A DNA stretch of 64,000 nt from Minisyncoccota bacterium (GTDB taxonomy: Bacteria; Patescibacteriota; Minisyncoccia; Phycocordibacterales; UBA9973): NCBI GenBank assembly GCA_041663005.1, contig JBAZRK010000002.1, positions 128,740-192,739 on the forward strand. Direction: 5' to 3'. Both the position numbers and the translations under genes were made by a program. Under the pieces are notes generated by a model that had not been told where the DNA came from, did no database searches, and saw nothing but the letters and a program-made list of their open reading frames with translations. How positions within the stretch are numbered: the stretch's first letter is position 1; each line of letters starts with the position of its first letter. Of this stretch, positions 133 through 29,646 are shown piece after piece.

Positions 133-1977
133 ATGTCATTTTTTGATAAATTATTAGGAAAAAAGGAATCTAAGGGCGAAGAAGAAACAGCTGCTTCGAC
201 ATTGGCAGTCTTGCCAGAGCAAATTTATGAATCGGGAAATTTGGAACTCCAGGACATAATTGCTCCTTCCGCGCTAAAGATAGAGCCAAAGGCCTTAAAC
301 CTTGGGGAGAAAATTGCCCGCACATTTTTTATAATTTCTTATCCGCGATTCTTGTCTGACAACTGGTTTTCGCCCATTATAAACCTCGATAAGGTTTTTG
401 ACATTTCAATTTTTATACACCCGATAGATACCTCCCTTGCCCTGCGTCAATTTCAGAAAAAGGTTGCCGAAGTGCAAAGCCAGATAAGCGTCCGCGAAGG
501 GAAAGGCATGGTGCGTGATCCTATGCTCGACACAGCGTATCAAGATCTCGAAAGTTTACGTGACAGCTTAATCCAGGCCCAAGAAAAGATGTTTGATATC
601 GGTGTGTACATAACCATTTATGCCGACAACGAGCTTGAGCTGTTCAAGGTAGAAAGTGAAGTAAAGTCTATTCTAGAATCCAAGCTTATTTACATCAAGC
701 CTGCGTTATTCCAACAAGTGGAGGGTTTCAAAAGTGTAATCCCGATAAATACCGACCTTTTGGGGATTACCCAGAAACTCAATTCTGAACCCTTGTCGAG
801 TATCTTTCCCTTTATATCTTTTGACCTAACTTCAGATAAAGGAATTCTCTACGGAATTAACCGACATAACTCCAGTATGGTTATTTTCGATCGTTTTTCT
901 CTGGAAAACTATAACTCAGTCACTTTCGCCAAATCCGGTTCGGGTAAATCTTACGCCACCAAGCTAGAAATCCTTCGGTCGCTTATGTTCGATACGGATG
1001 TTATTGTTATCGATCCCGAAAGAGAGTATGAATTCCTTTCAGAAACAGTGGGTGGAAGATATTTCAATATCTCTCTTTCTTCCGATCACCACATAAATCC
1101 TTTCGACCTGCCTATCCCGCGTGAAGACGAAACCGCAGAAGATGTTTTGCGTTCCAACATCATAAACCTGGTGGGATTGTTCCGCTTGATGTTAGGCGGG
1201 CTTTCGCCGGAAGAAGACTCAATGGTAGACCGTGCAATTTCGGAAACTTACGCAATGAAAGACATAACGCCGGAGTCAGACTTCTCGAATATCGACCCCC
1301 CGCTTCTTTCGGACTTTGAAATGGTACTCTCGGGTATGGACGGCAGCGACTCTGTGGTGCAGAGATTGGTGAAGTACACCCGCGGCTCCTGGGCCACGTT
1401 TCTAAATCGACCCTCAAACGTAGACATAAATAAAAAGTTCGTCGTTTTCTCCGTGCGAGATATGGAAGACGAGCTTAAGCCTATCGCAATGTATATCATT
1501 ATGCATTATATTTGGAACACTATCAGGAAAAATTTGAAGAAGCGCATCTTGGTAGTCGACGAGGCTTGGTGGATGATGAAGTCCGAAGATACCGCCTCTT
1601 TCCTTTACTCTATCGCTAAACGAGGGAGAAAATATTACTTGGGCCTTTCGACAATAACTCAAGACGCCGCCGACTTTATGAAATCTCCTTATGGGGTGCC
1701 CATAATCACAAACTCCTCCATCCAGCTCTTACTTAAACAATCCCCAACAACCATCGACATTCTCCAGCAAACCTTTAACCTAACCGACGAGGAAAAATAC
1801 CTCCTACTTGAGTCCAATGTAGGGGAGGGAATATTCTTCGCCGGGTTAAAGCATGTGGCTATAAAAATAGTGGCCTCTTATACCGAAGACCAAATCATCA
1901 CTTCTGACCCTTCGCAAATCCTTTCTAACAAAAAAGCGAAACAGGACGAGGAGAAAGCGGAATTGGCTAAGAAGTAA
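133..1977 (+). CDS. VirB4/TrbE/TraC-family conjugative-type (T4SS-like) ATPase
   Basis: 614-aa ORF. Walker A FAKSGSGKSYATK. Walker B embedded in ILVVDEAWWMM (the DEAW motif typical of VirB4/TraC). Size is small for VirB4 but the fold signature is consistent. tataat-like promoter context upstream. Confidence 0.6.
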   Translation: MSFFDKLLGKKESKGEEETAASTLAVLPEQIYESGNLELQDIIAPSALKIEPKALNLGEKIARTFFIISYPRFLSDNWFSPIINLDKVFDISIFIHPIDTSLALRQFQKKVAEVQSQISVREGKGMVRDPMLDTAYQDLESLRDSLIQAQEKMFDIGVYITIYADNELELFKVESEVKSILESKLIYIKPALFQQVEGFKSVIPINTDLLGITQKLNSEPLSSIFPFISFDLTSDKGILYGINRHNSSMVIFDRFSLENYNSVTFAKSGSGKSYATKLEILRSLMFDTDVIVIDPEREYEFLSETVGGRYFNISLSSDHHINPFDLPIPREDETAEDVLRSNIINLVGLFRLMLGGLSPEEDSMVDRAISETYAMKDITPESDFSNIDPPLLSDFEMVLSGMDGSDSVVQRLVKYTRGSWATFLNRPSNVDINKKFVVFSVRDMEDELKPIAMYIIMHYIWNTIRKNLKKRILVVDEAWWMMKSEDTASFLYSIAKRGRKYYLGLSTITQDAADFMKSPYGVPIITNSSIQLLLKQSPTTIDILQQTFNLTDEEKYLLLESNVGEGIFFAGLKHVAIKIVASYTEDQIITSDPSQILSNKKAKQDEEKAELAKK

Positions 1978-2031
1978 GTAGGCTATTAGGCCCTAGGCAA
2001 CTAGGCATTAGCTTTGGTATAATACTTTATA

Positions 2032-2997
2032 ATGAGATTAAGGATCTTTTTTCTGCTTCTAATATTTTTGCTCCCTATGACGGCTGGAGCGATCTCCCCG
2101 TCAAGTATTTTAGTAAACGTCTCTCCAGAAAATCCTGCGCCGGATGAAAGTGTTTATATTTCTTTAAACAGCTATGCTGCCAACCTTGACAGTGTGGCCA
2201 TATCTTGGCTCGTAAATGGAAAAACTGTGTCTTCGGGCATTGGTAAAAAGTCCCTCACGGTAACGGCGCCTGGCGCTGGGCAAGAAATGCGCATTTCTAC
2301 TAGCATCGCCTTCGCTGATGGCAAAGTGGATAAAAATATAGTTTTGCGTCCGGCGGTTATGGCCCTTATCTGGCAAGCCAATGATGCCTACGTCCCCCCT
2401 TTCTATAAAGGCAAGGCGCTCCCTACAACAGGGAGCGATATAAAGATTGTGGCTATGCCTGAGCTAAAGAGCGGTTCGCAGCCCGTAAATATCAAAAATA
2501 TGGTTTATGCTTGGAAGAAAGATTACAACAATGACCAAGGAGCCTCAGGTTATGGTAAAAATTTCTATATTTTCACCAATGACTACCTCGAGGACTCCAA
2601 TGTAGTGAGCGTCGTTGCTTCCACCACAGACCAGAAGTACTCTTCCGCAGGGGAGATAACTGTCGGTATCTTCGAACCTAAAATTTTATTTTACAAAAAT
2701 GATGCTTCGCTCGGGACCCTCTGGGAACACGCCCTCGCTGACGGTCACCGCATAAACGGCGAAGAAATTCTCGAGGCAGCTCCTTACTATATCTCGCCTG
2801 AAGATATCCGCCTTCCTTCCCTTACCTGGGACTGGTCCATAAATGGTACTTATGTTGGCGTTTCAAGCTTAAAGAAAAATGCGCTTCCGGTTAAAGCTAA
2901 CCCTGGCGCATCTGGCACCTCGCGCATAAAAGTGGAAATAAATAATAAATACAAATTATTCACTTCGGCCGAAAAGGAGCTCGACGTGCAATTTTAA
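2032..2997 (+). CDS. secreted hypothetical protein (N-terminal signal peptide, beta-rich)
   Basis: 321-aa ORF starting MRLRIFFLLLIFLLPMTAGA (signal peptide). No recognizable catalytic motif. Tightly linked between the VirB4-like gene and the lysozyme-like membrane protein. Confidence 0.5.
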   Translation: MRLRIFFLLLIFLLPMTAGAISPSSILVNVSPENPAPDESVYISLNSYAANLDSVAISWLVNGKTVSSGIGKKSLTVTAPGAGQEMRISTSIAFADGKVDKNIVLRPAVMALIWQANDAYVPPFYKGKALPTTGSDIKIVAMPELKSGSQPVNIKNMVYAWKKDYNNDQGASGYGKNFYIFTNDYLEDSNVVSVVASTTDQKYSSAGEITVGIFEPKILFYKNDASLGTLWEHALADGHRINGEEILEAAPYYISPEDIRLPSLTWDWSINGTYVGVSSLKKNALPVKANPGASGTSRIKVEINNKYKLFTSAEKELDVQF

Positions 2998-2999
2998 TT

Positions 3000-4001
3000 A
3001 TGAAAAAAATTTTATTTTACATTTTAATACTTACCACTTTAACCTTTTCTGTCTCGTCAAACATTTTCGCAGCTACTGTGTGCCAAGAAGGAACGGTCCC
3101 TTCCCCAGACGGCAACTCCTGTGTCCCAGCGCCCACCCCTGTCTCTCCCACAACATATCAGCTTTTATCTCCACTACCTTGCCCAGATGGCGCTGCGGGT
3201 TGTTCGGGAACTAAACTTGAAAGTTTTGATACTGCCTTAGATAAAAACGCGGGTTTGGCGCCATATTTAAACACGATGATAAAGATCTTCATCGGCATTT
3301 GCGCCGTGTTGGCTGTGGTGATGATAGTAATAGGTGGCTTGGAATATATGACTAGCGAGCTCCCCAGCAACAAAGAAGGTGGTAAAAATAGAATCACTCA
3401 AGCTGTGTTCGGCCTTATTCTCGCACTTGTCGCCTGGCTAATACTCTACACCATCAACCCAGCTCTCCTCGATGCGGATTTGAAAAACGTGGGGACTGCC
3501 ACGGTGACGGTCACTTTAGACGAAAAGATTAAAATATATTCTGGTGGAGGAACCTGTGAACCTATCACAACGGGTCTATGTAGCCCGGAAAATTTAGCTG
3601 GAGCTGGTTTTGCGAATGGCACACAGGCTTCGTCTATATGTAAAGGGGAAAGTAATGGGAACGCTAGTTTGCAAAGCGAGGTAGATAAATGTAAAGACGG
3701 AAACTCTTTTTCTTTTGGTTTATTTCAAGTAAATGTCATCGCCCATGCAAATGAAATTCCTGGTGGGGTGTGTAGTGGTATATTTGAAGTAAGCGGCGGA
3801 GGGACTCAAGGTGCCTGTATGCCGGGAAAAAGCAAGAATGGTATATGTTTTGAACGAGACTGTAGTGTAAAAAACCCCACCAAATACCAATCGTGCATAA
3901 ATTACATAAACAACCCTGCCAACAACATAGCTTATGCAAAAAATTTGCAAGCGGCGCGAGGGTGGGGGCAGTGGGGCGCCAATGCCTCATGTCATTTTTA
4001 A
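3000..4001 (+). CDS. membrane-anchored Cys-rich lysozyme/lytic-transglycosylase-like protein (signal peptide + two-TM hairpin + VirB1/SLT-like C-terminal domain)
   Basis: Signal peptide MKKILFYILILTTLTFSVSS. Two hydrophobic helices (IKIFIGICAVLAVVMIVIGG and AVFGLILALVAWLILYTI) arranged like a TrbC/VirB2 hairpin. C-terminal domain has about 14 Cys, a CKGES-Xn-S-X-GLFQVN arrangement and a terminal AYAKNLQAARGWGQW, reminiscent of SLT (E-S ... GLMQ ... AYNAG) and i-type lysozyme signatures. Starts 3 nt after the previous stop, so probably co-transcribed. Confidence 0.4.
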   Translation: MKKILFYILILTTLTFSVSSNIFAATVCQEGTVPSPDGNSCVPAPTPVSPTTYQLLSPLPCPDGAAGCSGTKLESFDTALDKNAGLAPYLNTMIKIFIGICAVLAVVMIVIGGLEYMTSELPSNKEGGKNRITQAVFGLILALVAWLILYTINPALLDADLKNVGTATVTVTLDEKIKIYSGGGTCEPITTGLCSPENLAGAGFANGTQASSICKGESNGNASLQSEVDKCKDGNSFSFGLFQVNVIAHANEIPGGVCSGIFEVSGGGTQGACMPGKSKNGICFERDCSVKNPTKYQSCINYINNPANNIAYAKNLQAARGWGQWGANASCHF

Positions 4002-4008
4002 TTATTTT

Positions 4009-5343
4009 ATGTCAAAAAGAAATTTTACACTTCTAATAATCGTCCTGGTAATCGTTGTTGCGGTACTTTTCGGATTTTTATTTTATAAAAACGCGCCAGT
4101 CGCTCCCGGGGAAGAACCGGGGGGCACAAACTTTTTCTCACAATTTAATCCTTTCAGTAATAACGACAGCACTACGCCTGACGTCACTCCTCCGCCTACC
4201 GACATTTCAGATTACGTGCCTCCAGAAGAAGAAACCAACTTATCACTTCTTAAGGTCTCCAGTATGCCTGTGGCAGGGTACACAGTCTTCCAGAAAGAAA
4301 GATTTAAGGAGGTGCCTGTAGTAGCTCCTAGCGCAATGGAAGGGGAAGGAGCTCTCCCTGCCCCTGTTCCAACAAAACCAACCCCGCCACAGACAGAATT
4401 TGTGCCCGCGCTTAGATATGTGGACCGCGCTACCGGGAATATTTATCAAACTTTCGCAGATAAAATTGAGGAGCGTAAATTCTCAGTCACAGTAATTCCT
4501 AAAGTGTATGAGGCAGTGTTCGGAAACGGGGGAGAGGCTGTAGTAATGAGATATGTTAAAGGCGATGGAAAAAGTATAGAAACTTTCTTCGGCAAACTGC
4601 CAAAGGAAATTCTTGGTGGGGACAGCACGGGAGAGAACGAAGTGCGAGGAACTTTCCTCCCCGCTAATATTACCGACCTCAGCCTCACCGCCGATGGTAA
4701 AAATTTGTTTTATCTTTTTGATTCCGGAGAAACAACCATAGGCACAACCCTTGACCTCACTACGGAGAAAAAAGCTCAGATTTTTGACTCCGCTTTCAAT
4801 GAATGGCTCCCTCTTTGGCCTAATAGCAAACTCATAACACTTACAACCAAGCCTTCATACCTAGCCCCAGGATATATGTATAAGTTAGATACGGGCACCA
4901 AGGGCTTTAGCCAGATTTTGGCAGACATAACTGGACTTACGACACTTACTAGCCCTGATGGAAAAAAGGTTTTGTATGCGAACAATACTCTAGCCTTAAA
5001 TATTTACCACACGGACACCAAAGTTTCCGAATCTCTCGGCGTCAGAACCCTGCCTGAGAAATGTGTCTGGGGTAAAGATAGTCTTGTTATTTATTGTGCT
5101 GCGCCGAAAATGGTAACAGGAGCAAACTATCCAGACATATGGTATCAGGGAGAAACATCCTTTGATGATCAAATTTGGAAAATAGAAGTAGAGACTGGAA
5201 GTGCCTCTATCCTCCTTGACCCAGCCAGTACTACGGCAGGAGAAAACGTAGACGGCATTAAGCTCTCTCTTGACCAAGGAGAAAAATATTTATTTTTCGT
5301 AAACAAAAAAGACTCTTTCTTGTGGAAATTCGATTTGGAATAG
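4009..5343 (+). CDS. membrane-anchored hypothetical protein (N-terminal TM, Pro/Thr-rich linker, large extracytoplasmic domain)
   Basis: Start chosen at the internal ATG at 4009 (MSKRNFTLLIIVLVIVVAVLF), 8 nt after the previous stop; the longer ORF from 3934 overlaps the upstream gene. A PPPTDISDYVPPEEE linker is followed by a beta-rich domain. Confidence 0.5.
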   Translation: MSKRNFTLLIIVLVIVVAVLFGFLFYKNAPVAPGEEPGGTNFFSQFNPFSNNDSTTPDVTPPPTDISDYVPPEEETNLSLLKVSSMPVAGYTVFQKERFKEVPVVAPSAMEGEGALPAPVPTKPTPPQTEFVPALRYVDRATGNIYQTFADKIEERKFSVTVIPKVYEAVFGNGGEAVVMRYVKGDGKSIETFFGKLPKEILGGDSTGENEVRGTFLPANITDLSLTADGKNLFYLFDSGETTIGTTLDLTTEKKAQIFDSAFNEWLPLWPNSKLITLTTKPSYLAPGYMYKLDTGTKGFSQILADITGLTTLTSPDGKKVLYANNTLALNIYHTDTKVSESLGVRTLPEKCVWGKDSLVIYCAAPKMVTGANYPDIWYQGETSFDDQIWKIEVETGSASILLDPASTTAGENVDGIKLSLDQGEKYLFFVNKKDSFLWKFDLE

Positions 5344-5348: not shown

Positions 5349-5831
5349 TTATTTCAGTTCTCCTATATACTTGATTACAACCCGGCGTGAGTTGCCGGTA
5401 CCGATAGATTCTGTTTCGAGGTCTCGCGCTTCGGACAAAAATTCGTGAACAATTCTGCGCTCAAAGGCCGTCATCGGGTCAACTTCTATATTTGATTTAA
5501 AGTATCTTGCTCGCTCGGACATCATATGCGCTACGGCACGAATACTGTCGATGTGTTTCTTTTGGAAACCGTTGATATCTACTAAAATTCCCATTCTCTC
5601 GGGATTCGCTTCCCTCTTGGCATAATTGCGAGCCTCAACAATTCGGTGCACGAGGTGATTTAAGGCGTGGAGCCCTTCCGCATCGCGACCGATGAAGAGA
5701 TGTGGTTCATTTACTTCAACTGAAATCCACACGTTGCCCGGCTTTTCTTCGATAACAGAAATTTCCCGTGGTTCTCCTGCGGTTTTTTCTATCAAGTCCT
5801 TTATTAAATTGCGTATTTCGCTTGTGTCCAT
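5349..5831 (-). CDS. jag: Jag/KhpB-like RNA-binding protein (KH + R3H)
   Basis: 160 aa with a C-terminal R3H-like motif region. Sits in the canonical position immediately downstream of yidC in the rnpA-yidD-yidC-jag operon. Confidence 0.7.
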   Translation of the reverse strand: MDTSEIRNLIKDLIEKTAGEPREISVIEEKPGNVWISVEVNEPHLFIGRDAEGLHALNHLVHRIVEARNYAKREANPERMGILVDINGFQKKHIDSIRAVAHMMSERARYFKSNIEVDPMTAFERRIVHEFLSEARDLETESIGTGNSRRVVIKYIGELK

Positions 5832-5833: not shown

Positions 5834-6565
5834 CTAAATATGTTGATCCGGCTTACTAAACTCTTTTCTTTTGACATAAATCTGTTGCCCCGCCATAAAG
5901 ACGTTGCTCGTAATCCAGTAAAGCGCCACGGCTCCGGAAATACTGTAGGCGATGAAAGCTACAATGAAAGGGAAGATATATTTCATCTGCAGGTGCATAC
6001 TCTTGGCAAAGCTGTCAGAGAACGAACCCGAGTTCGAAGAACTGGTAGGGGTGGGTTTAGGCATAAAGTGAGCTTGTAGGTATTGTGAAACTCCCGCTAA
6101 AATGGCAAGAACCACACTTTTGCCAGCAATATCAAGCACCCCTAAAAACATCATATTAGCATGCTCGGGTACTGGGATGAATGAATACAAGTAACCGTTC
6201 TGGAAACTTATTCCTCGAGAAAATACGTAATACAAAGCGAAAATTATAGGGATTTGCACCAGAACCAGGAGACAACCGGAAAATGGGTTAACTTTATGTT
6301 TCTTATATAGTTCAAAGGTAAGCTTGGCCTGCTCTTCCTTAGAAGCTCCGCTAGTCTTTATTTTACTGAGCTCGGGCTGAAGCATATTCATTTCAGCCTG
6401 GCTTTCAATAGAGCGGTGCGAAAGCGGAAGGAGAATGAGCTTTACGATAATGGTTAAGATTATAACCGCAAGACCGACGTCTCCGCCGGGGATAACTGAA
6501 ACCAAGAACGCTAGGGCATTTAATAATGGCTCATACAAAACTGTGTTCCAGATGTTTGAAATCAT
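5834..6565 (-). CDS. yidC: membrane protein insertase YidC (short form)
   Basis: 243-aa polytopic membrane protein. Operon context with rnpA and yidD. Conserved C-terminal basic tail. Confidence 0.85.
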   Translation of the reverse strand: MISNIWNTVLYEPLLNALAFLVSVIPGGDVGLAVIILTIIVKLILLPLSHRSIESQAEMNMLQPELSKIKTSGASKEEQAKLTFELYKKHKVNPFSGCLLVLVQIPIIFALYYVFSRGISFQNGYLYSFIPVPEHANMMFLGVLDIAGKSVVLAILAGVSQYLQAHFMPKPTPTSSSNSGSFSDSFAKSMHLQMKYIFPFIVAFIAYSISGAVALYWITSNVFMAGQQIYVKRKEFSKPDQHI

Positions 6566-7417: not shown

Positions 7418-8761
7418 ATGAATACAAAGCAGTTGTGGAAGAATTGCCTGCTCCAGATAGAGGCGAGCATGTCAAAAGCAAATTTCAGCACCTGGTTTAA
7501 AAACACATCTATTGTAAAAGAGGAAACGGGGATAATTTACATTGGCGTACCTAACGAATTTGTCCGCGATTGGTTAATGAACAAATACCATAAGCTCATT
7601 ACTAAGACCATCGCCGACGCTTATGAAAATATGCGTGCGGTTGAGTACACTATAACCAAAATAGAGGTAGAAAAAGAGTCTTCTACGGCCCCAGTGAGTG
7701 AGACCACTGAGAGGGAGCTGCCTTTAAAGGATTTATACATCAATCCGGACGATAATTTGAACCCGAGGTACCATTTTAACTCTTTTATCGTGGGTGCTTT
7801 CAATGAGTTGGCGTATGCGGCATCTCAAGCGATCATTGATTCTCCTGGAACGAAGTATAATCCGTTTTTCATTTACGGAGGCACAGGACTCGGGAAGACT
7901 CATATGATCCAAGCCGTTGGAAACTCCATCAAAGATAAATATCCGAACAAGAAAGTTCACTATATGACCCTGGAGAAATTCGCCACCGACTTCATAAACG
8001 CCCTCCAGAACAACAAAGCGAACTCTTTCAAAGAAAAATATCGAAAATACGACCTTTTGATTATCGACGACATTCAATTTATTGGTAAAATGGAAAAAAT
8101 TCAGGAAGAACTCTTTCACACCTTCAATACTTTCCATGAAAGCAACAAGCAAATAATATTTTCTTCAGACAAACATCCTAATTACATCCCAGAGCTTGCC
8201 GACAGGCTAAAGTCTCGGTTTGCGGCGGGGATGATAGTTGATATTTCTGAACCAGAGTATGAGTCCCGCCTGGCAATCCTAAAAGTTAAACTGCGCGACC
8301 TAAATATTGACCTAGAGCAGGAAGTTGTGGAGTATATAGCTGGGGTTGTTCAAGGTAATATCAGAGAATTAGAGGGGAGCTTAAACCTGGTAGTAATGCA
8401 GTATCGCCTTAAAAACAAGCCTTTAACTGTTATTGAGGTTAAAAACCTACTTAAAAACAACATGCGTCCAAAGAAAAACATCGCCATTAAGGATGTTGTG
8501 AAGATTGTGAGTGATTATTATAAACTTGAGGAGGCTTCTGTTTATGAAAAAACTCGAAAAAAGGAGATTGTGAAGGCGCGCCAGGTGGTTATGTATTTAC
8601 TGAGAGAAGATTTTAATGTTTCCTACCCATTAATAGGACAAAAGTTGGGGGGTAAGGACCATACAACAGTTATTCATTCTTGTTTAAAAATAAAAACAGA
8701 TTTAAAGAGCGACCCACAACTACTTCAAGAGTTGGAACAAATAAGAATTATGTTTAAATAG
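7418..8761 (+). CDS. dnaA: chromosomal replication initiator DnaA
   Basis: 447 aa. AAA+ Walker A GGTGLGKTH, Walker B LLIIDDIQF, and a C-terminal DNA-binding domain (VMYLLRE...SYPLIGQKLGGKDHTTV). Confidence 0.95.
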   Translation: MNTKQLWKNCLLQIEASMSKANFSTWFKNTSIVKEETGIIYIGVPNEFVRDWLMNKYHKLITKTIADAYENMRAVEYTITKIEVEKESSTAPVSETTERELPLKDLYINPDDNLNPRYHFNSFIVGAFNELAYAASQAIIDSPGTKYNPFFIYGGTGLGKTHMIQAVGNSIKDKYPNKKVHYMTLEKFATDFINALQNNKANSFKEKYRKYDLLIIDDIQFIGKMEKIQEELFHTFNTFHESNKQIIFSSDKHPNYIPELADRLKSRFAAGMIVDISEPEYESRLAILKVKLRDLNIDLEQEVVEYIAGVVQGNIRELEGSLNLVVMQYRLKNKPLTVIEVKNLLKNNMRPKKNIAIKDVVKIVSDYYKLEEASVYEKTRKKEIVKARQVVMYLLREDFNVSYPLIGQKLGGKDHTTVIHSCLKIKTDLKSDPQLLQELEQIRIMFK

Positions 8762-8998
8762 CTGTGGGTAAGTTAAGAAAAACATACTAACAACTTTCAT
8801 TTCAATTGTTAATAAAAAATGATAATTAAATTAAGATAATATTAAAAGATAAATATTACTAAAAATTAAAGAAGGTTGTTAGTTAAAAATAAGATTAAAA
8901 TTTTACAAAATAACCATATAAAGTAATATTGAAAAATTTTATCCACTTATAAACACAACTAGTATTACTAATAATTTAAATATATAAAATATAAACAT
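8762..8998. other. extremely AT-rich dnaA-dnaN spacer, candidate DNA unwinding element of oriC
   Basis: About 237 bp, almost entirely A/T. DnaA-box-like 9-mers occur at 8763-8771 (TGTGGGTAA, 1 mismatch, reverse orientation) and 8939-8947 (TTATCCACT, 1 mismatch). Confidence 0.5.
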
Positions 8999-10096
8999 AT
9001 GAAAATTGAATGCTCTGTTGAAAAAATTAAAAATGCAATTTACCAAACCGAAAGGGTTACAGGTAAAAATCTAACCCTGCCAGTTTTAAGTTCTATCCTT
9101 TTAATCGCTTCGGGGAAATCTTTAAAATTACGAGCCACAAATTTAAGTATTGGTATTGAAATAGAAATCCCAGCAAAAATTGAAAAAGAAGGAATTTTAG
9201 CAGTTTCTGGGTCGGTTTTAAATGCGGTCTTCTCTAACTTACCTACTAATGATAATGTTTTCCTGGAGGAAAAGAATGGTAATTTGTCGGTTAAAACAAA
9301 AAAGAGCCAAATAATACTCAAAGGGCAATCCCATGAAGATTTCCCAACTATACCATCTGTATCTGGATCAAATTTTGAAATAGATTCCAAAAAATTTACA
9401 GAAGGAATAAAATCTGTGTATTATAGCTCCTCGGTTTCAGATATAAAGCCAGAAATATCCAGTGTGTTTATGTATACCAATGATGATGGCTTGGTGTTTG
9501 TTTCCACTGATTCGTTCCGCTTAGCAGAGAAAAAAATAAAAGCGAAGGGGATTGAAGAAATACCTGGAATTATAATCCCATTTAAAAATGTAGTTGAAAT
9601 TTTACGAGTATTCGGGGATGCAAGTGGTGTTATTAAGGTGTGTTTTAATAAAAACCAAATATCATTTTCTTCCGATAATATATACCTAACCTCTCGGATT
9701 ATTGATGGAATTTTCCCCGATTATCGACAAATATTACCTAAAGATACTTCTACGGAGATAGTGGTTTTGAAGCAAGACTTGCTTAACGCCCTAAAATTAT
9801 CAAATGTATTTTCTGATAAATTTAATCAAGTAAACTTTTCCGCCGACCCGAAACAGAAAATTCTTGAACTATCCTCTACTAATAATGATGTGGGTGAGAA
9901 CAAAACCCGATTAGACGCAGTGTTGAAAGGGGAAGGGGTGGAACTAGGCTTCAATTATAAATACTTCTTAGATTGCTTCCAATCTATTACAACCGATAGT
10001 GTTTCAATAAAAATGTCCGGCGGCAGCAAGCCAATGGTTATAACCCCGGTTTCTGACACATCCTTCACATACCTCATAATGCCAATGAATAGGTAG
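8999..10096 (+). CDS. dnaN: DNA polymerase III beta sliding clamp
   Basis: 365 aa with three-domain clamp architecture. Sits in the conserved position after dnaA. Confidence 0.9.
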   Translation: MKIECSVEKIKNAIYQTERVTGKNLTLPVLSSILLIASGKSLKLRATNLSIGIEIEIPAKIEKEGILAVSGSVLNAVFSNLPTNDNVFLEEKNGNLSVKTKKSQIILKGQSHEDFPTIPSVSGSNFEIDSKKFTEGIKSVYYSSSVSDIKPEISSVFMYTNDDGLVFVSTDSFRLAEKKIKAKGIEEIPGIIIPFKNVVEILRVFGDASGVIKVCFNKNQISFSSDNIYLTSRIIDGIFPDYRQILPKDTSTEIVVLKQDLLNALKLSNVFSDKFNQVNFSADPKQKILELSSTNNDVGENKTRLDAVLKGEGVELGFNYKYFLDCFQSITTDSVSIKMSGGSKPMVITPVSDTSFTYLIMPMNR

Positions 10097-14993: not shown

Positions 14994-15530
14994 TTATTCC
15001 GCGTTAGTATAAACATCTTGTACGTCATCATTTTCTTCCAGTTCTTCCACTAATTTATCCAACATTGCCAAATCTTCGTCGGAGAGAGGAATAGTATTCG
15101 TAGGTTTCCAGACTAAACCTTCAGGAGTTATCTCTTTTTGAAACGCCCAAGTCACCGAACCTATTGCGCCCAAGTTGAAACCGTTTTTCGTGAGTGTGTG
15201 CTTAATGTCTTGCACGGTTCTGTTCTTACTGTCGGTTAGAGTTTCAATAATTATTCCAACTCCGCCTGGGCCGTGAGCTTCGTAGTGTATCGCATCCATA
15301 TGCGCACCCGGTTCGCTCGCTTTCTTCACCGCGCGCTCGATGTTGTCTGCCGGCATATTTACTTTTTTCGCTTTTTCAATCGCTGCGCGGAGCCCCGGGC
15401 TATCTTTTCCACCCGAAAGTTTTGCTTCTACAGAAATGAAACGTACCAGCTTGGAGAAAATTTTGCTTTTCTTCGCATCCGTAATTCCCTTTTGTCTTTT
15501 GATTTGTGTCCAGCGATTATGTCCCGACAT
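14994..15530 (-). CDS. yebC: YebC/PmpR-family transcriptional regulator (short form, 178 aa)
   Basis: N-terminal MSGHNRWTQIKRQKG and C-terminal DDVQDVY match the YebC termini. About 70 aa shorter than typical YebC. Confidence 0.85.
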   Translation of the reverse strand: MSGHNRWTQIKRQKGITDAKKSKIFSKLVRFISVEAKLSGGKDSPGLRAAIEKAKKVNMPADNIERAVKKASEPGAHMDAIHYEAHGPGGVGIIIETLTDSKNRTVQDIKHTLTKNGFNLGAIGSVTWAFQKEITPEGLVWKPTNTIPLSDEDLAMLDKLVEELEENDDVQDVYTNAE

Positions 15531-16350
15531 GGTTTATTAAGGTTAGTACTTTTAATGCATCACCCTTTCTTTTTTCATGCTTTAAATAAGGAAGCAGGTT
15601 AGAAATTATTTTACCTAAATCTCTTTTATTATACACGAATACACCATAAACATCCTTATTTGATTTTACACCATTTTTTACGGAACCAGCCGCCCTGACA
15701 AATTGCAAACGTGTTTTTACTCCAATACGTGGCAGTATTTTCGACTGTATTTGCGCCATTGTATGCTTATCTTGGGTTTTTATAGAAAACACAGGTTGAT
15801 TTCGATAATTAATTGAAAATGTTCCCTCAGCATCTACATACCCTGCAAAAAAAGCCAAAGCGGTATTTCTTTTACCTAAAATTTCCTTAGGTACTCCACC
15901 GGCTTTATTTATTAAAAAAGAAAAAGAATTGTTTAAATAACACCTTATATTCACAGCACCTTGTTTATCTGGGCCGATTTCTTTTACGTGGCCGTATTTA
16001 CAAAATAAATCCCTAACAAGACTTAATTGTTCTAATTTGCCACTGTTGGTGCTGGCACGAATGGTTGGGCTATCGGGGTGGGTTTTACTGATATATAAAT
16101 CACCATATCTAAATCCCAAAAGATAAGCTTTTTCTTCAGGTGATCCGCAGAAATCTTTTCGCGGGTATTTAGGGGGAGTTAATGCCTTGCCTTGTTGGAT
16201 TGTTCTGGTAGGAATACGAAAAAGTTTTAGTTTTTTCATTACCAAAGCCTGGCTGCAATTCAACTGCTTGCTTATTTGGTAGGAGCTGAGTTTCTTCTTT
16301 AGATACAAATCGAGTAACACACTTTTTTGGATGTTTATAAAGCTGGGCAC
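15517..16350 (-). CDS. double-motif LAGLIDADG homing endonuclease with N-terminal HTH
   Basis: 277 aa. Motif 1 YLLGFRYGDLYIS and motif 2 AFFAGYVDAEGTFSI. N-terminal helix-turn-helix (SSYQISKQLNCSQALVMKKL). Its 3' end overlaps the yebC start by 14 nt. Confidence 0.7.
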   Translation of the reverse strand: MPSFINIQKSVLLDLYLKKKLSSYQISKQLNCSQALVMKKLKLFRIPTRTIQQGKALTPPKYPRKDFCGSPEEKAYLLGFRYGDLYISKTHPDSPTIRASTNSGKLEQLSLVRDLFCKYGHVKEIGPDKQGAVNIRCYLNNSFSFLINKAGGVPKEILGKRNTALAFFAGYVDAEGTFSINYRNQPVFSIKTQDKHTMAQIQSKILPRIGVKTRLQFVRAAGSVKNGVKSNKDVYGVFVYNKRDLGKIISNLLPYLKHEKRKGDALKVLTLINHVGT

Positions 16351-18307: not shown

Positions 18308-20005
18308 TTACTCCTCATTTAAATCTACGACGCTCTGAACTTCTTCGAGCGAAGTGACGCCGTTTAGAATTTTTACCAAGCCGTCCTGGCGCATAGAGAG
18401 TATGCCTTGCAGCGCGGCAACTTTTTTAATTTCACGTTCGCTTGGATTCTCCGGCATTATTTTTTCAATAGTTTCATCGGTGCGAATAGCTTCAAAAATA
18501 CCCATTCTTCCTTTAAATCCAGTCATGTTGCATTTATCACACCCCACAGAAGTAAAAATTTTAAAAGAAGCATCGGGGTCTATCTTGTAATTAGTAAGGC
18601 TTTTGCCTTCCGCTTTGATGTTAACCATTATTTTTTTTATGAGCGCGTCCTCTTCTGCTGTCAGTGTTTTTTCTTTTTTACAAAATTCGCAGAGCTTGCG
18701 CACCAGACGCTGGGCTATAGAAAGTGACAAGGCCGATACCAGGATTTTTGGGTTGACCCCGAGATCTATCAGACGGGGGATGACACCTGCGGCATTGTTT
18801 GTGTGGAGAGTCGAGAAGACCATATGTCCGGTGAGAGCGGATTGTACCGCTGTTTCTGCGGTTTCGCGGTCGCGGATTTCTCCTACCATCACCACATCTG
18901 GGTCCTGACGCAAAGCGGAGCGCAGACCCTCCACGAAAGTGTAACCGCGCTCTTCGTTTGTCTGTGTTTGAGTTACGCCGGGGAGGTGATACTCCACCGG
19001 GTCTTCAATGGTGATAATTTTTATTTCCGGAGAATATATTTTTCGCAGGAAGGCGTAAAGTGTAGTGGTTTTTCCGGAACCAGTTGGACCGGTGACCAGG
19101 ATGAGGCCGTTAGGCTTGGCGATTTCTTCTTGAATAACGGAAAACAAAAATGGTTCTATTCCCATTTCTTCCAATTTTACCTGTATGGATTTCGGGTCGA
19201 GTATTCGCATAACGATGGACTCGCCGTAAGCACCGGGAATGAGGGAGGCACGGATACTGATTTCCTCTTTTTCTTCCAGGATACTAAAGCGACCATCTTG
19301 AGCCACCGTGGAAGTCAATTTCATACCGGAGAGAAGTTTGATGCGTGAATTGAGCAGGCGATAAACTTCCAAACCAAAAAAGTTTAAATCTTGCAGAACC
19401 CCATCCAGACGAAGTCGAAGCCTGCCACGGTCTCTTTCAGCTTCGATGTGAATATCCGAAGCCTTGATGGCGATAGCGCCAGCCAAGATGATTTCAAGGA
19501 GGTGTGAGATTTTGTGGGTTTTGTTACCCTCTAATGCTTCTGTCACCATTTTTTGAATATCCTGCATTTTCTCTATCTGGTTGGCTGTTTCGCGCAGAAC
19601 TTCACCCGAGATGTCAATGCCGCCGACGATAGAACTTTCGGCCATAGAGATTTCCTTATAGCGTTCCCAGATTTTAGTTAGGCTCGCGGTGGATGCCATA
19701 TAGAAAACCGGCGTTAGATTTTTTCGCCCCATATCCTCTTTTAATTTTCCAAAGAGTGCATCTGACGGCGAATGCACGGCGATATAAATATTTTTGCCGA
19801 AAAGTTTAAATGGGCCTACGGAGAGTTCTCGGGACTCTTTTTCCGTAATGGCGCGGAGAGCTTCGTTGTCTATGCCCAGCCGAGATAGATCAATATAAGG
19901 CAGGCCGTATTTTTCTTCCGCCAGGGTCGCCACAAGCTCTTCCTCTTCCTGCTTGCGCAGGTCGTCAAGACGCTTGTTTTGCTTTTCTTCATCAAAGGGA
20001 GGCAT
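18308..20005 (-). CDS. pilB: type IV pilus assembly / type II secretion ATPase (PilB/GspE family)
   Basis: 565 aa. Walker A LVTGPTGSGKTTTL. His/Asp boxes. C-terminal tetra-Cys motif CDKC...C. Confidence 0.85.
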   Translation of the reverse strand: MPPFDEEKQNKRLDDLRKQEEEELVATLAEEKYGLPYIDLSRLGIDNEALRAITEKESRELSVGPFKLFGKNIYIAVHSPSDALFGKLKEDMGRKNLTPVFYMASTASLTKIWERYKEISMAESSIVGGIDISGEVLRETANQIEKMQDIQKMVTEALEGNKTHKISHLLEIILAGAIAIKASDIHIEAERDRGRLRLRLDGVLQDLNFFGLEVYRLLNSRIKLLSGMKLTSTVAQDGRFSILEEKEEISIRASLIPGAYGESIVMRILDPKSIQVKLEEMGIEPFLFSVIQEEIAKPNGLILVTGPTGSGKTTTLYAFLRKIYSPEIKIITIEDPVEYHLPGVTQTQTNEERGYTFVEGLRSALRQDPDVVMVGEIRDRETAETAVQSALTGHMVFSTLHTNNAAGVIPRLIDLGVNPKILVSALSLSIAQRLVRKLCEFCKKEKTLTAEEDALIKKIMVNIKAEGKSLTNYKIDPDASFKIFTSVGCDKCNMTGFKGRMGIFEAIRTDETIEKIMPENPSEREIKKVAALQGILSMRQDGLVKILNGVTSLEEVQSVVDLNEE

Positions 20006-28757: not shown

Positions 28758-28850
28758 TTTACTCTATTATTTTTCTCTCGACCCTTTTAATGCCGGGCAG
28801 AAAAAGGAATCGGATAATTTTTTGCAGAATTTTTTCCATGACAATATCTA

Positions 28851-29645: not shown

Positions 29646-29646
29646 A

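What the first reader, a model, noticed from the sequence alone, without database searches (positions are those of the whole stretch)
133..5343. T4SS-like module next to the origin: VirB4-type ATPase plus a membrane-anchored, Cys-rich lysozyme/SLT-like protein with a pilin-like TM hairpin
Four co-directional, tightly spaced genes (gaps of 54, 2 and 7 nt) begin with a VirB4/TraC-type ATPase (GSGKS; DEAW). The third gene is an unusual fusion. It has a signal peptide, then a two-helix hydrophobic hairpin arranged like TrbC/VirB2 pilins. Its 200-aa C-terminal domain carries about 14 cysteines, a CKGES…GLFQVN…AYAKNLQAARGWGQW arrangement, and resembles VirB1/SLT lytic transglycosylases and i-type lysozymes. 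A secreted beta-rich protein and a bitopic protein with a Pro-rich stalk complete the block. A transglycosylase tethered by a pilin-like hairpin, paired only with VirB4, is not a canonical conjugation system. It may be a minimal envelope-spanning DNA or protein transfer device.
Basis: partly seen in the sequence, partly recalled or inferred. Interest (0 to 1): 0.65.

Follow-up and report, generated by a model that had tools for sequence, protein, structure and literature searches.

The report
Patescibacterial T4SS with pilin-anchored lysozyme
These four genes are the tail end of the origin-proximal type IV secretion operon already described in ultrasmall Patescibacteria, and its one unusual feature is that the pilin-like membrane hairpin carries a cell-wall-cutting domain that close relatives swap for other wall enzymes.

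Summary
Four tightly spaced co-directional genes at 133-5343 encode a VirB4 ATPase, a secreted beta-rich protein, a signal-peptide + two-helix-hairpin + Cys-rich protein, and a bitopic protein with a Pro-rich stalk.

The hairpin passes Pfam's T4SS_pilin threshold. The C-terminal domain is a divergent SLT_3/lysozyme-like domain with an invariant Glu-Ser…GLxQ.N signature.

The reading "paired only with VirB4, a minimal non-canonical device" is an artefact of the window edge. On the source contig the operon continues upstream with a VirB4 N-domain gene (TrsD-like), a PrgI/VirB3-like gene, a large polytopic protein and four more genes.

The order ksgA…VirB4–g2–pilinX–g4–jag–yidC–dnaA is kept across 80 species-level genomes. 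This is the monoderm-type Patescibacterial T4SS published in 2023-2025, including its position near dnaA.

One point was not found in the searched literature. At the conserved pilin position, 70 relatives carry at least 27 unrelated C-terminal domains, including NlpC/P60, VanY, YkuD, M15 and SLT. These turn over far faster than the rest of the locus.

Most likely this protein is the system's tethered cell-wall-cutting subunit. Whether it cuts its own wall or the host's is open.

The parts
133..1977 (+). VirB4-type T4SS ATPase, 614 aa. It corresponds to the C-terminal roughly three quarters of a full VirB4; the N-terminal domain is a separate gene just upstream of the window.
   Evidence: NCBIfam conju_CD1110 scores 365.4 bits, above the 325 cutoff, and covers model positions 183-733 of 752. 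Pfam P-loop_TraG E 3.7e-25. Walker A GSGKS at aa 269 and Walker B DEAW at aa 476. The upstream 212-aa gene matches VirB4 model positions 2-166 and TrsD. Identity is 75-95% aa across 80 species genomes.
1978..2031 (+). 54-nt spacer between VirB4 and gene 2. It contains TATAAT 13 nt before the ATG and may be an internal promoter.
   Evidence: Sequence read directly. Function not tested.
2032..2997 (+). Gene 2: secreted 321-aa beta-rich protein, probably Ig-like repeats, a conserved T4SS-locus component of unknown role.
   Evidence: Signal peptide visible in the sequence. No Pfam or NCBIfam family. A profile of 35 orthologues gives only weak matches to Ig-like phage decoration proteins (Hoc 3shs, E 0.072). 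Present directly after VirB4 in nearly all loci long enough to show it, at 26-64% identity.
3000..4001 (+). Gene 3: pilin-hairpin / lysozyme-like fusion protein, 333 aa.
   Evidence: An identical protein is annotated "pilin [Candidatus Paceibacterota bacterium]" by NCBI.
3000..3074 (+). Signal peptide of gene 3, aa 1 to about 25 (…NIFA/AT).
   Evidence: Hydrophobic N-terminus followed by an AxA-like site. The cleavage site is inferred.
3156..3179 (+). Conserved Y-x-L-L-x-P-L-P motif (aa 53-60) ahead of the hairpin.
   Evidence: Y53 is invariant, and L56 and P58 are at least 90% conserved in 70 orthologues whose flanks are otherwise unalignable. The model places it in a beta-strand. Function unknown.
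3255..3455 (+). VirB2/TrbC-like two-helix transmembrane hairpin (aa 86-152) with a short K/R-containing cytoplasmic loop (aa 119-121 and flanks). Both termini are predicted to lie outside the cell.
   Evidence: Pfam T4SS_pilin covers aa 90-151 at 40.6 bits, above the 26.6 cutoff. TrbC E 0.016. NCBIfam Mbov_0395 pilin-like scores 30.7, below its cutoff of 40. AF2 predicts helices 86-118 and 122-152. This is the only part of the gene that still aligns at DNA level with L003, L005 and L035 (win 3264-3437).
3513..3998 (+). Disulfide-rich lysozyme-like (SLT_3-type) catalytic domain, aa 172-333, with 10 Cys.
   Evidence: AF2 pLDDT 95.9, pTM 0.89. For this protein Pfam SLT_3 scores 18.7 bits, below the 27 cutoff. 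SLT_3 hits 25 of 27 close homologues and 20 of 63 wider family members (best 7.6e-9), and SLT hits 8 of 27. Foldseek top hits are bovine lysozyme c (E 0.3, prob 0.69) and phage SLT/LT_GEWL proteins (E 0.07-1, prob up to 0.99, TM 0.40-0.45). The family has 1200 clusters at 50% identity, with the domain almost always C-terminal.
3648..3653 (+). Codons for the invariant Glu217-Ser218, the presumed catalytic acid of the lysozyme/SLT "ES" motif.
   Evidence: Invariant in 34 of 34 and 63 of 63 aligned family members, together with S238, G240, Q243, N245 and W325; L241 is invariant in the 34 and at least 90% conserved in the 63. The catalytic role is inferred from the SLT/lysozyme superfamily.
4009..5343 (+). 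Gene 4: bitopic membrane protein of 444 aa, with an N-terminal TM helix, a Pro-rich stalk and an extracellular TolB-like beta-propeller (weak evidence).
   Evidence: ATG at 4009 (gene call). A profile of 35 orthologues gives weak TolB matches (7mx5, E 0.055). PD40 repeats are found in 5 of 35 orthologues and a PG_binding_1 domain in 3 of 35. It follows the pilin gene directly in most loci (exceptions include L009) at 24-74% identity.

Best explanation
The region is the 3' end of the chromosomal, origin-proximal type IV secretion operon typical of Paceibacteria (Patescibacteria/CPR). This system is related to Gram-positive (MPF-FATA) conjugation machines but lacks a relaxase or coupling protein nearby.

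The VirB4 ATPase is split into a TrsD-like N-domain gene and the 614-aa gene seen here. It sits at the membrane with a PrgI/VirB3-like protein and a large polytopic protein, and it powers assembly and transport.

Gene 3 is the machine's cell-wall-cutting subunit. It is exported by Sec and held in the membrane, or in a pilus-like polymer, by a VirB2-like two-helix hairpin with both ends outside the cell. Its disulfide-rich SLT_3/lysozyme-like domain uses Glu217 to cleave peptidoglycan glycan strands locally, so that the channel or pilus can pass a wall.

This makes gene 3 the functional counterpart of VirB1, PrgK, TraG(pIP501) and CwlT. Gene 2 (secreted, Ig-like) and gene 4 (membrane-anchored propeller, with a peptidoglycan-binding domain in some orthologues) are extracellular, wall-associated structural partners.

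Shown here: gene identities, topology, synteny and domain swapping. Inferred: enzymatic activity, which wall is cut, and what the system transports.
For: - VirB4 membership.
- Upstream TrsD-like, PrgI (38.2 bits, cutoff 27) and polytopic protein genes on the same contig with 1-54 nt gaps apart from one larger interval before the PrgI-like gene.
- Synteny in 80 species.
- T4SS_pilin above threshold and the predicted hairpin.
- Lysozyme/SLT-like evidence.
- At the same locus position, relatives carry NlpC/P60 (9), VanY (8), YkuD (5), Peptidase_M15_4 (3), SLT_2 (2) or SLT (1) on the same hairpin. The slot is therefore a cell-wall-enzyme slot.
- Three of 35 gene-4 orthologues carry PG_binding_1.
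- No relaxase or VirD4 was found in the 64-kb window, and none was recognised among the seven genes searched just upstream.
- The published description of the same system reports MPF-FATA-related VirB4, TrsD, PrgI, VirB2-like pilins, no relaxase, and proximity to dnaA, dnaN, rnpA, ksgA and rpmH. It also reports VirB1 hits linked to VirB4 specifically in Paceibacteria: PMC12102498.
- The T4SS and its pilins are essential in Southlakia: PMC10633639.
- The gene order polytopic–PrgI–VirB4–anchored hydrolase–bitopic protein parallels prgH-I-J-K-L of pCF10 (own knowledge, plus references in PMC12102498).
Against: - This protein's own SLT_3 score is below Pfam's cutoff.
- Every structural match has E of at least 0.07 and TM of at most 0.48.
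- hhalign against hen lysozyme or against a canonical SLT domain gave probabilities below 2%.
- Four of 70 orthologues have almost no C-terminal domain, and about six carry a helical non-enzyme domain. A hydrolase at this position is therefore not obligatory.
- The 808-aa "VirB6-like" protein is supported only by sub-cutoff hits to mycoplasma ICE membrane proteins.
- No activity or localisation data exist.
Confidence: 0.7

Rival explanations
1. Host-directed "drill". The hairpin polymerises, or sits at the tip of a VirB2-type pilus or stalk, and displays the enzyme and the variable N-terminal domains outward. The enzyme then opens the host cell's wall at the epibiont-host contact. The enzyme type is matched to host wall chemistry. 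This partly overlaps with the best explanation and differs in the target.
For: - C-terminal domains turn over very fast. Only 10 of 70 proteins share their type with the nearest VirB4 relative, against 4.8 expected by shuffling. Only 4 of 24 pairs with at least 92% VirB4 identity share a type. L001, L003 and L004 have lysozyme-like, YkuD and NlpC/P60 domains at 94-95% VirB4 identity.
- The DNA breakpoints are cassette-like, lying at the hairpin end and at the start of gene 4.
- N-terminal regions are also hypervariable (49 clusters among 70) and include TIG, Big_1 and CBM_10 adhesin-like domains.
- The hairpin is kept even where the enzyme is absent.
- The enzyme repertoire matches that of interbacterial peptidoglycan-targeting effectors and phage lysins (own knowledge).
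- T4SS-pilin-domain proteins are among the most highly expressed unknown genes in parasitic Paceibacteria (PMC10936435).
- In known VirB2/TraA pili both termini face the outside of the filament (own knowledge).
Against: - There is no evidence that any monoderm or Patescibacterial T4SS makes a pilus.
- A 17-kDa or larger domain on every subunit may be sterically hard to pack.
- Some cultured Paceibacteria parasitise methanogenic archaea that have no murein (PMC10936435).
- Fast turnover could also reflect relaxed constraint on which bond in the cell's own wall is cut.
- No immunity-like gene accompanies the enzyme.
Confidence: 0.25
2. Polyprotein / pro-pilin. The C-terminal domain is cleaved off after export, as C-terminal peptides are removed from TrbC and VirB2. 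This yields a mature short pilin plus a free hydrolase in equal amounts at the assembly site.
For: - C-terminal processing is a known step in TrbC maturation (own knowledge).
- The linker aa 160-171 is the lowest-confidence segment of the model, with pLDDT below 50 at residues 164-170.
- No stand-alone short pilin exists in the 74 kb examined.
- Hairpin-matched homologues are all at least 214 aa.
Against: - No TraF-like or other dedicated peptidase gene is recognised in the locus.
- No conserved cleavage motif is seen after the hairpin apart from NP.LL.
- The idea is entirely untested.
Confidence: 0.12
3. One reading: a minimal envelope-spanning device built only from VirB4 and a pilin-tethered transglycosylase, distinct from canonical T4SSs.
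For: Within the window alone no VirB3, VirB6, VirB8 or VirD4 gene is visible.
Against: - The window begins inside the operon.
- TrsD, PrgI and a polytopic membrane protein, plus four further conserved genes, lie 0-8 kb upstream on the same strand of the same contig and in 80 related genomes.
Confidence: 0.03
4. An integrated conjugative element (ICE) that happens to sit beside the origin and still moves DNA by conjugation.
For: - The closest curated VirB4 family is from a Clostridioides conjugative transposon.
- The pilin-like, TM and VirB4 trio also matches mycoplasma ICE families.
Against: - No relaxase, coupling protein or integrase was found in the 64-kb window, and none was recognised among the seven genes searched just upstream.
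- The chromosomal context (ksgA … jag-yidC-rnpA-rpmH-dnaA) is identical in 80 species, and VirB4 is 75-95% identical while the DNA is only about 70% identical. This is the pattern of a vertically inherited core locus under purifying selection.
- The literature reaches the same conclusion (PMC12102498).
Confidence: 0.03
5. The whole machine is an importer (ComB-like) that takes DNA, nucleotides or other building blocks from the host. The hydrolase only clears the path. This concerns the cargo, and is compatible with the best explanation for gene 3.
For: - Patescibacteria cannot make nucleotides.
- The T4SS is essential in Southlakia, whereas ComEC-dependent competence is not.
- Reviewers have proposed uptake by analogy with H. 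pylori ComB (PMC11665869; PMC12857230).
Against: Nothing in this locus speaks to direction or cargo. No ComB-specific components were recognised.
Confidence: 0.15

Closest known systems
Patescibacterial (CPR) T4SS as described by Quiñonero-Coronel et al. 2025 (PMC12102498) and Wang et al. 2023 (PMC10633639)
   Same: MPF-FATA-type VirB4, an adjacent TrsD-like gene, a PrgI/VirB3-like gene, a VirB2-like PF18895 protein beside virB4, no relaxase or T4CP nearby, a chromosomal location next to dnaA/dnaN/rnpA/rpmH/ksgA, and a Paceibacteria host.
   Different: Those papers treat VirB2-like pilins and VirB1-like hydrolases as separate components, and state that most genomes with VirB2 lack VirB1. Here, and in about half of 70 relatives, one polypeptide carries both. 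No tandem pilin array like that of Saccharimonadia is present in the 74 kb examined.
PrgK (pCF10), TraG (pIP501) and CwlT (ICEBs1): membrane-anchored peptidoglycan hydrolases of Gram-positive T4SSs
   Same: An exported, membrane-tethered wall hydrolase encoded close downstream of VirB4 (here one gene intervenes). It includes a lysozyme/SLT-type glycan-cutting domain. Relatives carry NlpC/P60 or peptidase domains, as these proteins do.
   Different: The anchor here is a VirB2-like two-helix hairpin rather than a single TM helix or a lipid anchor. There is one catalytic domain instead of two or three. No detectable sequence similarity to PrgK, TraG or CwlT was seen. The domain is unusually Cys-rich.
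VirB2/TrbC/TraA conjugative pilins (Pfam TrbC PF04956, T4SS_pilin PF18895)
   Same: A signal peptide, two hydrophobic helices joined by a short basic loop, both termini outside the cell, and a T4SS_pilin score above threshold.
   Different: The mature protein is about 300 aa rather than about 70-120. It carries a 60-aa N-terminal extension and a 160-aa enzyme domain. Polymerisation, cyclisation and processing are unknown. The organism is a monoderm.
SLT / goose-type / c-type lysozyme superfamily (Pfam clan Lysozyme: SLT PF01464, SLT_3 PF18896)
   Same: An invariant Glu-Ser, then S-x-G-L-x-Q-x-N about 20 residues later, and a helical C-terminal lobe with a conserved Trp. The best structural neighbours are SLT/LT_GEWL proteins and lysozyme c.
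   Different: The scores are sub-threshold for this protein. The second catalytic Asp of c-type lysozymes is an invariant Ser (S238). The spacing is C-x-x-E-S rather than C-x4-E-S. There are ten cysteines. TM-scores reach only about 0.4-0.48.
Mycoplasma ICE conjugation module (NCBIfam Mbov_0395 pilin-like, Mbov_0396 TM protein, Mbov_0397 VirB4)
   Same: The same trio is detectable: pilin-like hairpin (E 1.8e-7), polytopic TM protein (E 8.3e-8) and VirB4 (E 1.5e-78).
   Different: All three scores are below the equivalog cutoffs. Mycoplasmas have no wall and no hydrolase fusion. The gene order differs, and the element there is mobile.

Membership tests
VirB4/TraC/CagE T4SS ATPase | Curated family HMM score above cutoff | tested here: met
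   NCBIfam NF045971 conju_CD1110 scores 365.4 bits against a cutoff of 325. The weaker DUF87/HerA hit (E 5.5e-6) is only the shared P-loop.
VirB4/TraC/CagE T4SS ATPase | Walker A and Walker B motifs | tested here: met
   GSGKS at aa 269 and DEAW at aa 476.
VirB4/TraC/CagE T4SS ATPase | N-terminal (membrane/VirB3-interacting) domain and an adjacent VirB3-like gene | tested here: met
   The N-domain is a separate 212-aa gene just upstream. It matches VirB4 models at positions 2-166 / 102-280, TrsD, and precomputed Pfam TraC-like. PrgI PF12666 scores 38.2 against a cutoff of 27 in the gene before it. Both lie outside the window.
VirB2/TrbC-type T4SS pilin (PF18895 T4SS_pilin) | Family HMM above gathering score | tested here: met
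   40.6 bits against a cutoff of 26.6, covering aa 90-151. 60 of 70 syntenic orthologues also match.
VirB2/TrbC-type T4SS pilin (PF18895 T4SS_pilin) | Signal peptide plus a two-helix hydrophobic hairpin with a short basic loop | tested here: met
   Hydropathy peaks at aa 86-103 and 130-141 (window starts). AF2 helices at 86-118 and 122-152. Loop sequence SELPSNKEGGKNR.
VirB2/TrbC-type T4SS pilin (PF18895 T4SS_pilin) | Small mature subunit (about 70-120 aa) without large extra domains | tested here: not met
   The protein is 333 aa with a 160-aa folded enzyme domain after the hairpin.
VirB2/TrbC-type T4SS pilin (PF18895 T4SS_pilin) | Polymerises into an extracellular pilus, with maturation by cleavage or cyclisation | not testable with these tools
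   Needs microscopy or mass spectrometry.
SLT / lysozyme-like superfamily (PF18896 SLT_3, PF01464 SLT) | Family HMM above gathering score for this protein | tested here: not met
   SLT_3 scores 15.5 bits for the full protein and 18.7 bits for the domain alone, against a cutoff of 27.
SLT / lysozyme-like superfamily (PF18896 SLT_3, PF01464 SLT) | Homologues of the domain recognised by the family HMMs | tested here: met
   SLT_3 is found in 25 of 27 close homologues (best 1.6e-5) and in 20 of 63 wider members at E ≤ 1e-3 (best 7.6e-9). SLT is found in 8 of 27 and 3 of 63.
SLT / lysozyme-like superfamily (PF18896 SLT_3, PF01464 SLT) | Catalytic Glu in an E-S motif followed by a G-L-x-Q motif | tested here: met
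   E217, S218, S238, G240, Q243 and N245 are invariant in both the 34 and the 63 aligned sequences; L241 is invariant in the 34 and at least 90% conserved in the 63.
SLT / lysozyme-like superfamily (PF18896 SLT_3, PF01464 SLT) | Lysozyme-type fold | tested here: inconclusive
SLT / lysozyme-like superfamily (PF18896 SLT_3, PF01464 SLT) | Muralytic activity | not testable with these tools
   Needs a biochemical assay.
c-type lysozyme (GH22) | Significant sequence match and the Glu35/Asp52 catalytic pair | tested here: not met
   The best PDB match is Bombyx lysozyme at E 0.049. hhalign against hen lysozyme gives probability 1.9%. The Asp52 position is an invariant Ser238.
i-type lysozyme / destabilase | Any sequence or fold match | tested here: not met
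   No Destabilase hit appeared in Pfam at E ≤ 1, and none appeared among the PDB sequence or Foldseek hits.
Patescibacterial MPF-FATA-like T4SS (PMC12102498) | VirB4 with TrsD, PrgI and a VirB2-like gene within a few genes | tested here: met
Patescibacterial MPF-FATA-like T4SS (PMC12102498) | VirB6-like polytopic protein near virB4 | tested here: inconclusive
   The 808-aa polytopic protein gives only sub-cutoff hits to mycoplasma ICE TM families (E 8.3e-8 and 4.3e-7). No Pfam TrbL or PDB match was found, even with a 30-sequence profile.
Patescibacterial MPF-FATA-like T4SS (PMC12102498) | No relaxase or coupling protein in the neighbourhood; chromosomal, near dnaA/dnaN/rnpA/rpmH/ksgA | tested here: met
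Patescibacterial MPF-FATA-like T4SS (PMC12102498) | VirB4 falls in the Patescibacteria clade of the VirB4 tree | not tested
   No tree with outgroups was built. At least 590 related loci came from Patescibacterial genomes, the best 80 being 75-95% identical.
Gram-positive T4SS wall hydrolases (PrgK/TraG/CwlT) | Membrane-anchored exported peptidoglycan hydrolase encoded next to VirB4 | tested here: met
   Enzyme identity is as in the SLT rows above.
Gram-positive T4SS wall hydrolases (PrgK/TraG/CwlT) | Sequence homology to those proteins (SLT + CHAP/NlpC-P60 architecture) | tested here: not met
   No CHAP, NlpC/P60 or LytM domain is present in this protein. Nine of 70 orthologues do carry NlpC/P60.

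The most novel reading that the evidence does not exclude
The VirB2-like hairpin of the Paceibacterial T4SS may be a conserved display scaffold. Its outward-facing N- and C-termini would carry interchangeable adhesin-like and wall-cutting modules: lysozyme-like, NlpC/P60, VanY/M15, YkuD, SLT and others. These modules are exchanged as cassettes between close relatives. On this reading the T4SS filament or stalk is an enzyme-armed tool for breaching the partner cell's wall, and the module type reports host wall chemistry and host range.
Probability: 0.2. Interest if true: 0.75.

Novelty: new member of a known kind. Interest (0 to 1): 0.4.

Why it matters
The function of the Patescibacterial T4SS is described as completely unknown, even though it is essential in the one species tested (PMC11665869, PMC10633639).

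This locus adds nothing new about the system's existence or position. It does show that in Paceibacteria the only pilin-like protein of the locus is usually one polypeptide with a cell-wall enzyme. It also shows that the enzyme module is replaced very often while the rest of the operon stays fixed.

That gives two concrete, testable handles. The first is the activity and target wall of these domains. The second is whether module type tracks host identity. The published inference that the putative VirB2 pilus does not need a VirB1-like function should be revisited, at least for this class.

Tried and rejected
- **Foldseek, full-length model against the PDB.** The results were dominated by generic helical hairpins and were uninformative. 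The C-domain was therefore re-predicted alone.
- **hhalign of the C-domain profile.** Against hen lysozyme and against a bona fide SLT domain from relative L052, probabilities were below 2%. A single-sequence template is too weak, so this counts neither for nor against.
- **i-type lysozyme / destabilase.** No hit anywhere; rejected.
- **c-type lysozyme membership.** Only marginal similarity, and the Asp52 equivalent is Ser; rejected as membership and kept as a superfamily resemblance.
- **VirB6 identity of the 808-aa upstream protein.** Pfam scans of the 30 orthologues and a PDB search with their profile found nothing. It is left as "VirB6-like by position and topology only".
- **Genes 2 and 4.** No curated family was found. 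Only weak Ig-like and TolB-like signals came from orthologue profiles.
- **Other pilin-like ORFs.** A local HMM search over the window plus 10 kb upstream found none.
- **VirD4 or relaxase in the rest of the window.** None was found. One look-up failed and was replaced by a Pfam scan.
- **DnaA-box count over the whole window.** It is not above chance (17 observed against 13.3 expected). Only the placement of boxes around dnaA is suggestive.
- **ICE hypothesis.** Rejected on conserved chromosomal synteny.
- **Literature searches for a description of pilin-hydrolase fusions.** None was found in the held library. This is not proof that none exists.

Full report
**1. What is in the sequence.**

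The four ORFs exist as described: 133-1977, 2032-2997, 3000-4001 and 4009-5343. All are on the + strand, with gaps of 54, 2 and 7 nt.

They run head-on into jag (5349-5831, R3H domain) and yidC (5834-6565). These are followed by yidD, rnpA and rpmH, and then by dnaA (7418-8761) and dnaN (8999-10096). A perfect DnaA box lies at 7342 and near-perfect ones at 8763 and 8939, although box density over the whole window is not above chance. The rest of the window is housekeeping: DNA repair, tRNAs, PBP1a, a PilB-like ATPase and PilM. An identical gene-3 protein is annotated by NCBI as coming from a Candidatus Paceibacterota MAG.

**2. The ATPase.**

Gene 1 scores 365.4 bits on NCBIfam's VirB4-like CD1110 family, above the 325 cutoff. 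It also matches the mycoplasma-ICE VirB4, TraC and VirB4_CagE models, and has Walker motifs GSGKS and DEAW. Its HerA/DUF87 match is weak. It is VirB4, but it covers only positions 183-733 of the 752-position model.

**3. The window cuts the operon.**

The exact protein was found on a 226-kb ENA contig. Eight more co-directional genes follow ksgA immediately upstream; seven of them were searched here:

- a 303-aa anchored protein
- a 731-aa secreted protein
- an 808-aa polytopic protein
- two small soluble proteins
- a 149-aa PrgI/VirB3-like protein (PF12666, 38.2 bits against a cutoff of 27)
- a 212-aa protein that matches the N-terminal 170-280 positions of the VirB4 models and TrsD

VirB4 is therefore split in two, and the "VirB4 plus transglycosylase only" picture is an edge artefact. 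The 808-aa protein gives only sub-cutoff hits to mycoplasma ICE membrane proteins. It is not recognised by Pfam scans of 30 orthologues or by a PDB search with their profile. I call it VirB6-like by position and topology only.

**4. Synteny.**

A genome-collection scan with VirB4 returned at least 590 related loci. The best 80 are distinct species-level Patescibacterial MAGs with 75-95% VirB4 identity.

tblastn with all locus proteins shows the order ksgA–u1–u2–polytopic–u4–u5–PrgI–TrsD–VirB4–g2–pilin–g4–jag–yidC–dnaA in almost every locus long enough to show it. At DNA level these genomes are only about 65-77% identical. The protein conservation therefore reflects purifying selection on a vertically inherited core locus, not a recently spread mobile element. 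No relaxase, coupling protein or integrase was found in the 64-kb window, and none was recognised among the seven genes searched just upstream.

**5. Gene 3, N-terminal half.**

Pfam T4SS_pilin (PF18895) matches aa 90-151 at 40.6 bits, above the 26.6 cutoff. TrbC and the NCBIfam pilin-like ICE family match below threshold.

AlphaFold2 with 34 homologues gives a helical hairpin at 86-118 / 122-152. The loop is short and basic, so both termini should be extracellular, as in VirB2.

An invariant Tyr within Y-x-LL-x-PLP (aa 53-60) precedes the hairpin in all 70 orthologues. Its role is unexplained.

**6. Gene 3, C-terminal half.**

Modelled alone with 27 homologues, aa 172-333 gives pLDDT 95.9 and pTM 0.89. 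Several lines point to a lysozyme/SLT-like domain:

- **Invariant residues.** E217-S218, S226, D229, S238, G240, L241, Q243, N245, W325 and five Cys are invariant in the 34-sequence alignment. This is the "ES … GLxQ" pattern of the lysozyme/SLT superfamily.
- **Pfam, this protein.** SLT_3 (PF18896, "Lysozyme like domain") is sub-threshold at 18.7 bits against a cutoff of 27.
- **Pfam, relatives.** SLT_3 hits 25 of 27 close homologues. At E ≤ 1e-3 it hits 20 of 63 members of the wider family (best 7.6e-9). SLT (PF01464) hits 8 of 27 and 3 of 63.
- **PDB sequence search.** The best match of the profile is silkworm lysozyme c (E 0.049).
- **Foldseek.** The best PDB hit is bovine stomach lysozyme (E 0.3, prob 0.69). 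Against viral models the top ranks are almost all SLT/LT_GEWL proteins (E 0.07-1, prob up to 0.99, TM 0.40-0.45).

No single match is significant, and hhalign against single templates failed. Three independent kinds of evidence nonetheless converge. I accept "divergent SLT_3-type lysozyme-like domain", probably a single-Glu enzyme, because the c-type Asp52 position is an invariant Ser.

Nothing supports an i-type lysozyme. The domain has 10 cysteines, and the whole protein has 15.

The family is large: 1200 clusters at 50% identity with E ≤ 1e-3. The domain is nearly always C-terminal, and 36 of 63 sampled members also carry T4SS_pilin.

**7. Domain swapping at the pilin slot.**

This point was not found in the papers searched. 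In the protein search, homologues that match only the hairpin carry VanY, Peptidase_M15_4, YkuD, NlpC/P60 or SLT_2 domains.

I extracted the gene at the syntenic position from 70 genomes and scanned them:

| Pfam family | Members (of 70) |
|---|---|
| T4SS_pilin | 60 |
| NlpC/P60 | 9 |
| VanY | 8 |
| YkuD | 5 |
| Peptidase_M15_4 | 3 |
| Amidase_5 | 3 |
| SLT_2 | 2 |
| SLT | 1 |

BLAST clustering gives 27 unrelated C-terminal types and 49 N-terminal types. The largest cluster, with 12 members, has no Pfam match. It shows H…D and H-x-H motifs suggestive of a LAS-type metallopeptidase (inference).

The Cys-rich lysozyme-like type of this window occurs in only three other loci: L012, L019 and L035. 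Four orthologues have almost no C-terminal domain, and about six have a roughly 240-aa helical one.

Only 10 of 70 proteins share their type with their nearest VirB4 relative, against a shuffled mean of 4.8. Only 4 of 24 pairs with at least 92% VirB4 identity share a type. This genome and its two closest relatives, at 94-95% VirB4 identity, carry lysozyme-like, YkuD and NlpC/P60 domains respectively.

DNA alignment to L003 and L005 runs unbroken from PrgI to the start of gene 3. It then covers only the hairpin (win 3264-3437), finds nothing over 3440-4000, and resumes at the start of gene 4. This is a cassette-like replacement.

**8. Genes 2 and 4.**

Neither gene has a curated family. Orthologue profiles give weak Ig-like matches for gene 2. 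For gene 4 they give weak TolB/PD40 propeller matches, with a PG_binding_1 domain in 3 of 35 orthologues.

Both proteins are extracellular by topology and are fixed parts of the locus.

**9. Comparison with what is known.**

Quiñonero-Coronel et al. 2025 (PMC12102498) describe this system. Their findings include:

- VirB4 proteins of Patescibacteria form a clade allied to MPF-FATA.
- TrsD, PrgI, VirB6 and PF18895 VirB2-like genes lie near virB4.
- Relaxases are almost absent.
- In Paceibacteria the locus lies beside dnaA, dnaN, rnpA, ksgA and rpmH.
- VirB1 hits associate with VirB4 mainly in Paceibacteria.

Wang et al. 2023 (PMC10633639) showed that the T4SS and its pilin genes are essential for epibiotic growth of Southlakia. 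Reviews call the function completely unknown (PMC11665869; PMC12857230). Kuroda et al. 2024 (PMC10936435) found T4SS-pilin-domain proteins among the most highly expressed unknown genes of archaea-parasitising Paceibacteria.

The 2025 paper counts VirB2 and VirB1 separately, and concludes that the putative pilus does not need VirB1. It does not mention fusions. Three literature searches found no description of them. Pfam's adjacent accessions PF18895 and PF18896, together with NCBI names such as "pilin" and "M15 family metallopeptidase" for these proteins, suggest that the architecture is implicit in the databases.

**10. Mechanism.**

I commit to gene 3 being the wall-cutting subunit of this T4SS. 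It is tethered by a VirB2-like hairpin and is functionally equivalent to PrgK, TraG, CwlT and VirB1 (confidence 0.7). The gene order parallels prgH-I-J-K-L of pCF10.

Whether it opens the cell's own wall or the host's is unresolved. Features that favour an outward, host-facing role (0.25):

- rapid module turnover
- hypervariable adhesin-like N-termini
- persistence of the hairpin where the enzyme is absent

Points that caution against it:

- there is no evidence for a monoderm T4SS pilus
- some known hosts are archaea
- a tethered autolysin is a simpler explanation

Cleavage into a pilin plus a free enzyme remains possible (0.12).

**11. Verdict.**

The locus is an ordinary member of a recently described system. 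It has one under-described and testable twist: a modular pilin-enzyme fusion.

Noticed in passing
window 3156-3179 (aa 53-60 of gene 3); alignment A3: A Y-x-L-L-x-P-L-P motif about 30 aa before the first hairpin helix is invariant or nearly invariant in all 70 syntenic orthologues, while everything around it is unalignable. The model places it in a beta-strand. No function is known; it could be a processing or docking site.
   Followed up: partly
source contig upstream of the window (L001 9358-9996 and 10001-11845): VirB4 is encoded as two genes, a 212-aa TrsD-like N-domain and a 614-aa ATPase, separated by 4 nt. This split is conserved in all 80 related genomes. The two genes together tile the full VirB4 HMM.
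   Followed up: partly
L001 versus L003-L082: VirB4 is 75-95% identical at protein level across species whose DNA is only about 65-77% identical. The extracellular locus proteins (u1, u2, polytopic, g2, g4) drop to 22-74%. This is a strong cytoplasmic-versus-surface rate contrast within one operon.
   Followed up: partly
L008 4798-5349, L016 3669-4268, L063 7161-8102, L078 13353-14015: Some orthologues of the pilin-fusion gene have little or no C-terminal domain (3-84 aa after the hairpin). No separate hydrolase gene lies between them and gene 4 in L008 and L016 (L063 has an unexamined 480-nt gap). Whether a hydrolase is supplied elsewhere in those genomes is unknown.
   Followed up: no
L067, L072, L074, L075, L077, L081 (pilin-position genes): The more distant loci (VirB4 about 75-77% identical) carry a roughly 240-aa highly charged helical or coiled-coil C-terminal domain instead of an enzyme. 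It has no family match.
   Followed up: no
window 1978-2031: The only sizeable gap in the operon, 54 nt between VirB4 and gene 2, contains TATAAT 13 nt upstream of the ATG. This suggests an internal promoter for the three extracellular-protein genes.
   Followed up: no
window 15517-16350 (-): An ORF with a weak LAGLIDADG_3 homing-endonuclease match sits between the YebC-like regulator gene and a 152-aa unknown gene, close to ruvB and ruvC.
   Followed up: no
window 42907-47267 (-), GC 0.51-0.55 versus a window mean of about 0.43: A GC-rich patch encodes a 765-aa CLIPPER-domain protein, a BACON-domain protein and a 292-aa unknown. It may be a horizontally acquired surface-protein block.
   Followed up: no
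window 18308-20005 (-) and 50330-52498 (+): Type IV pilus genes lie in the same window: a PilB-like T2SSE ATPase, PilM, and two small downstream genes. This is a second envelope machine, separate from the T4SS.
   Followed up: no
window 8001-10000 and 28001-32000: There are local GC dips, to 0.33 around the dnaA-dnaN spacer and dnaN, and to 0.37-0.39 at 28-32 kb. The first fits an AT-rich origin region.
   Followed up: no
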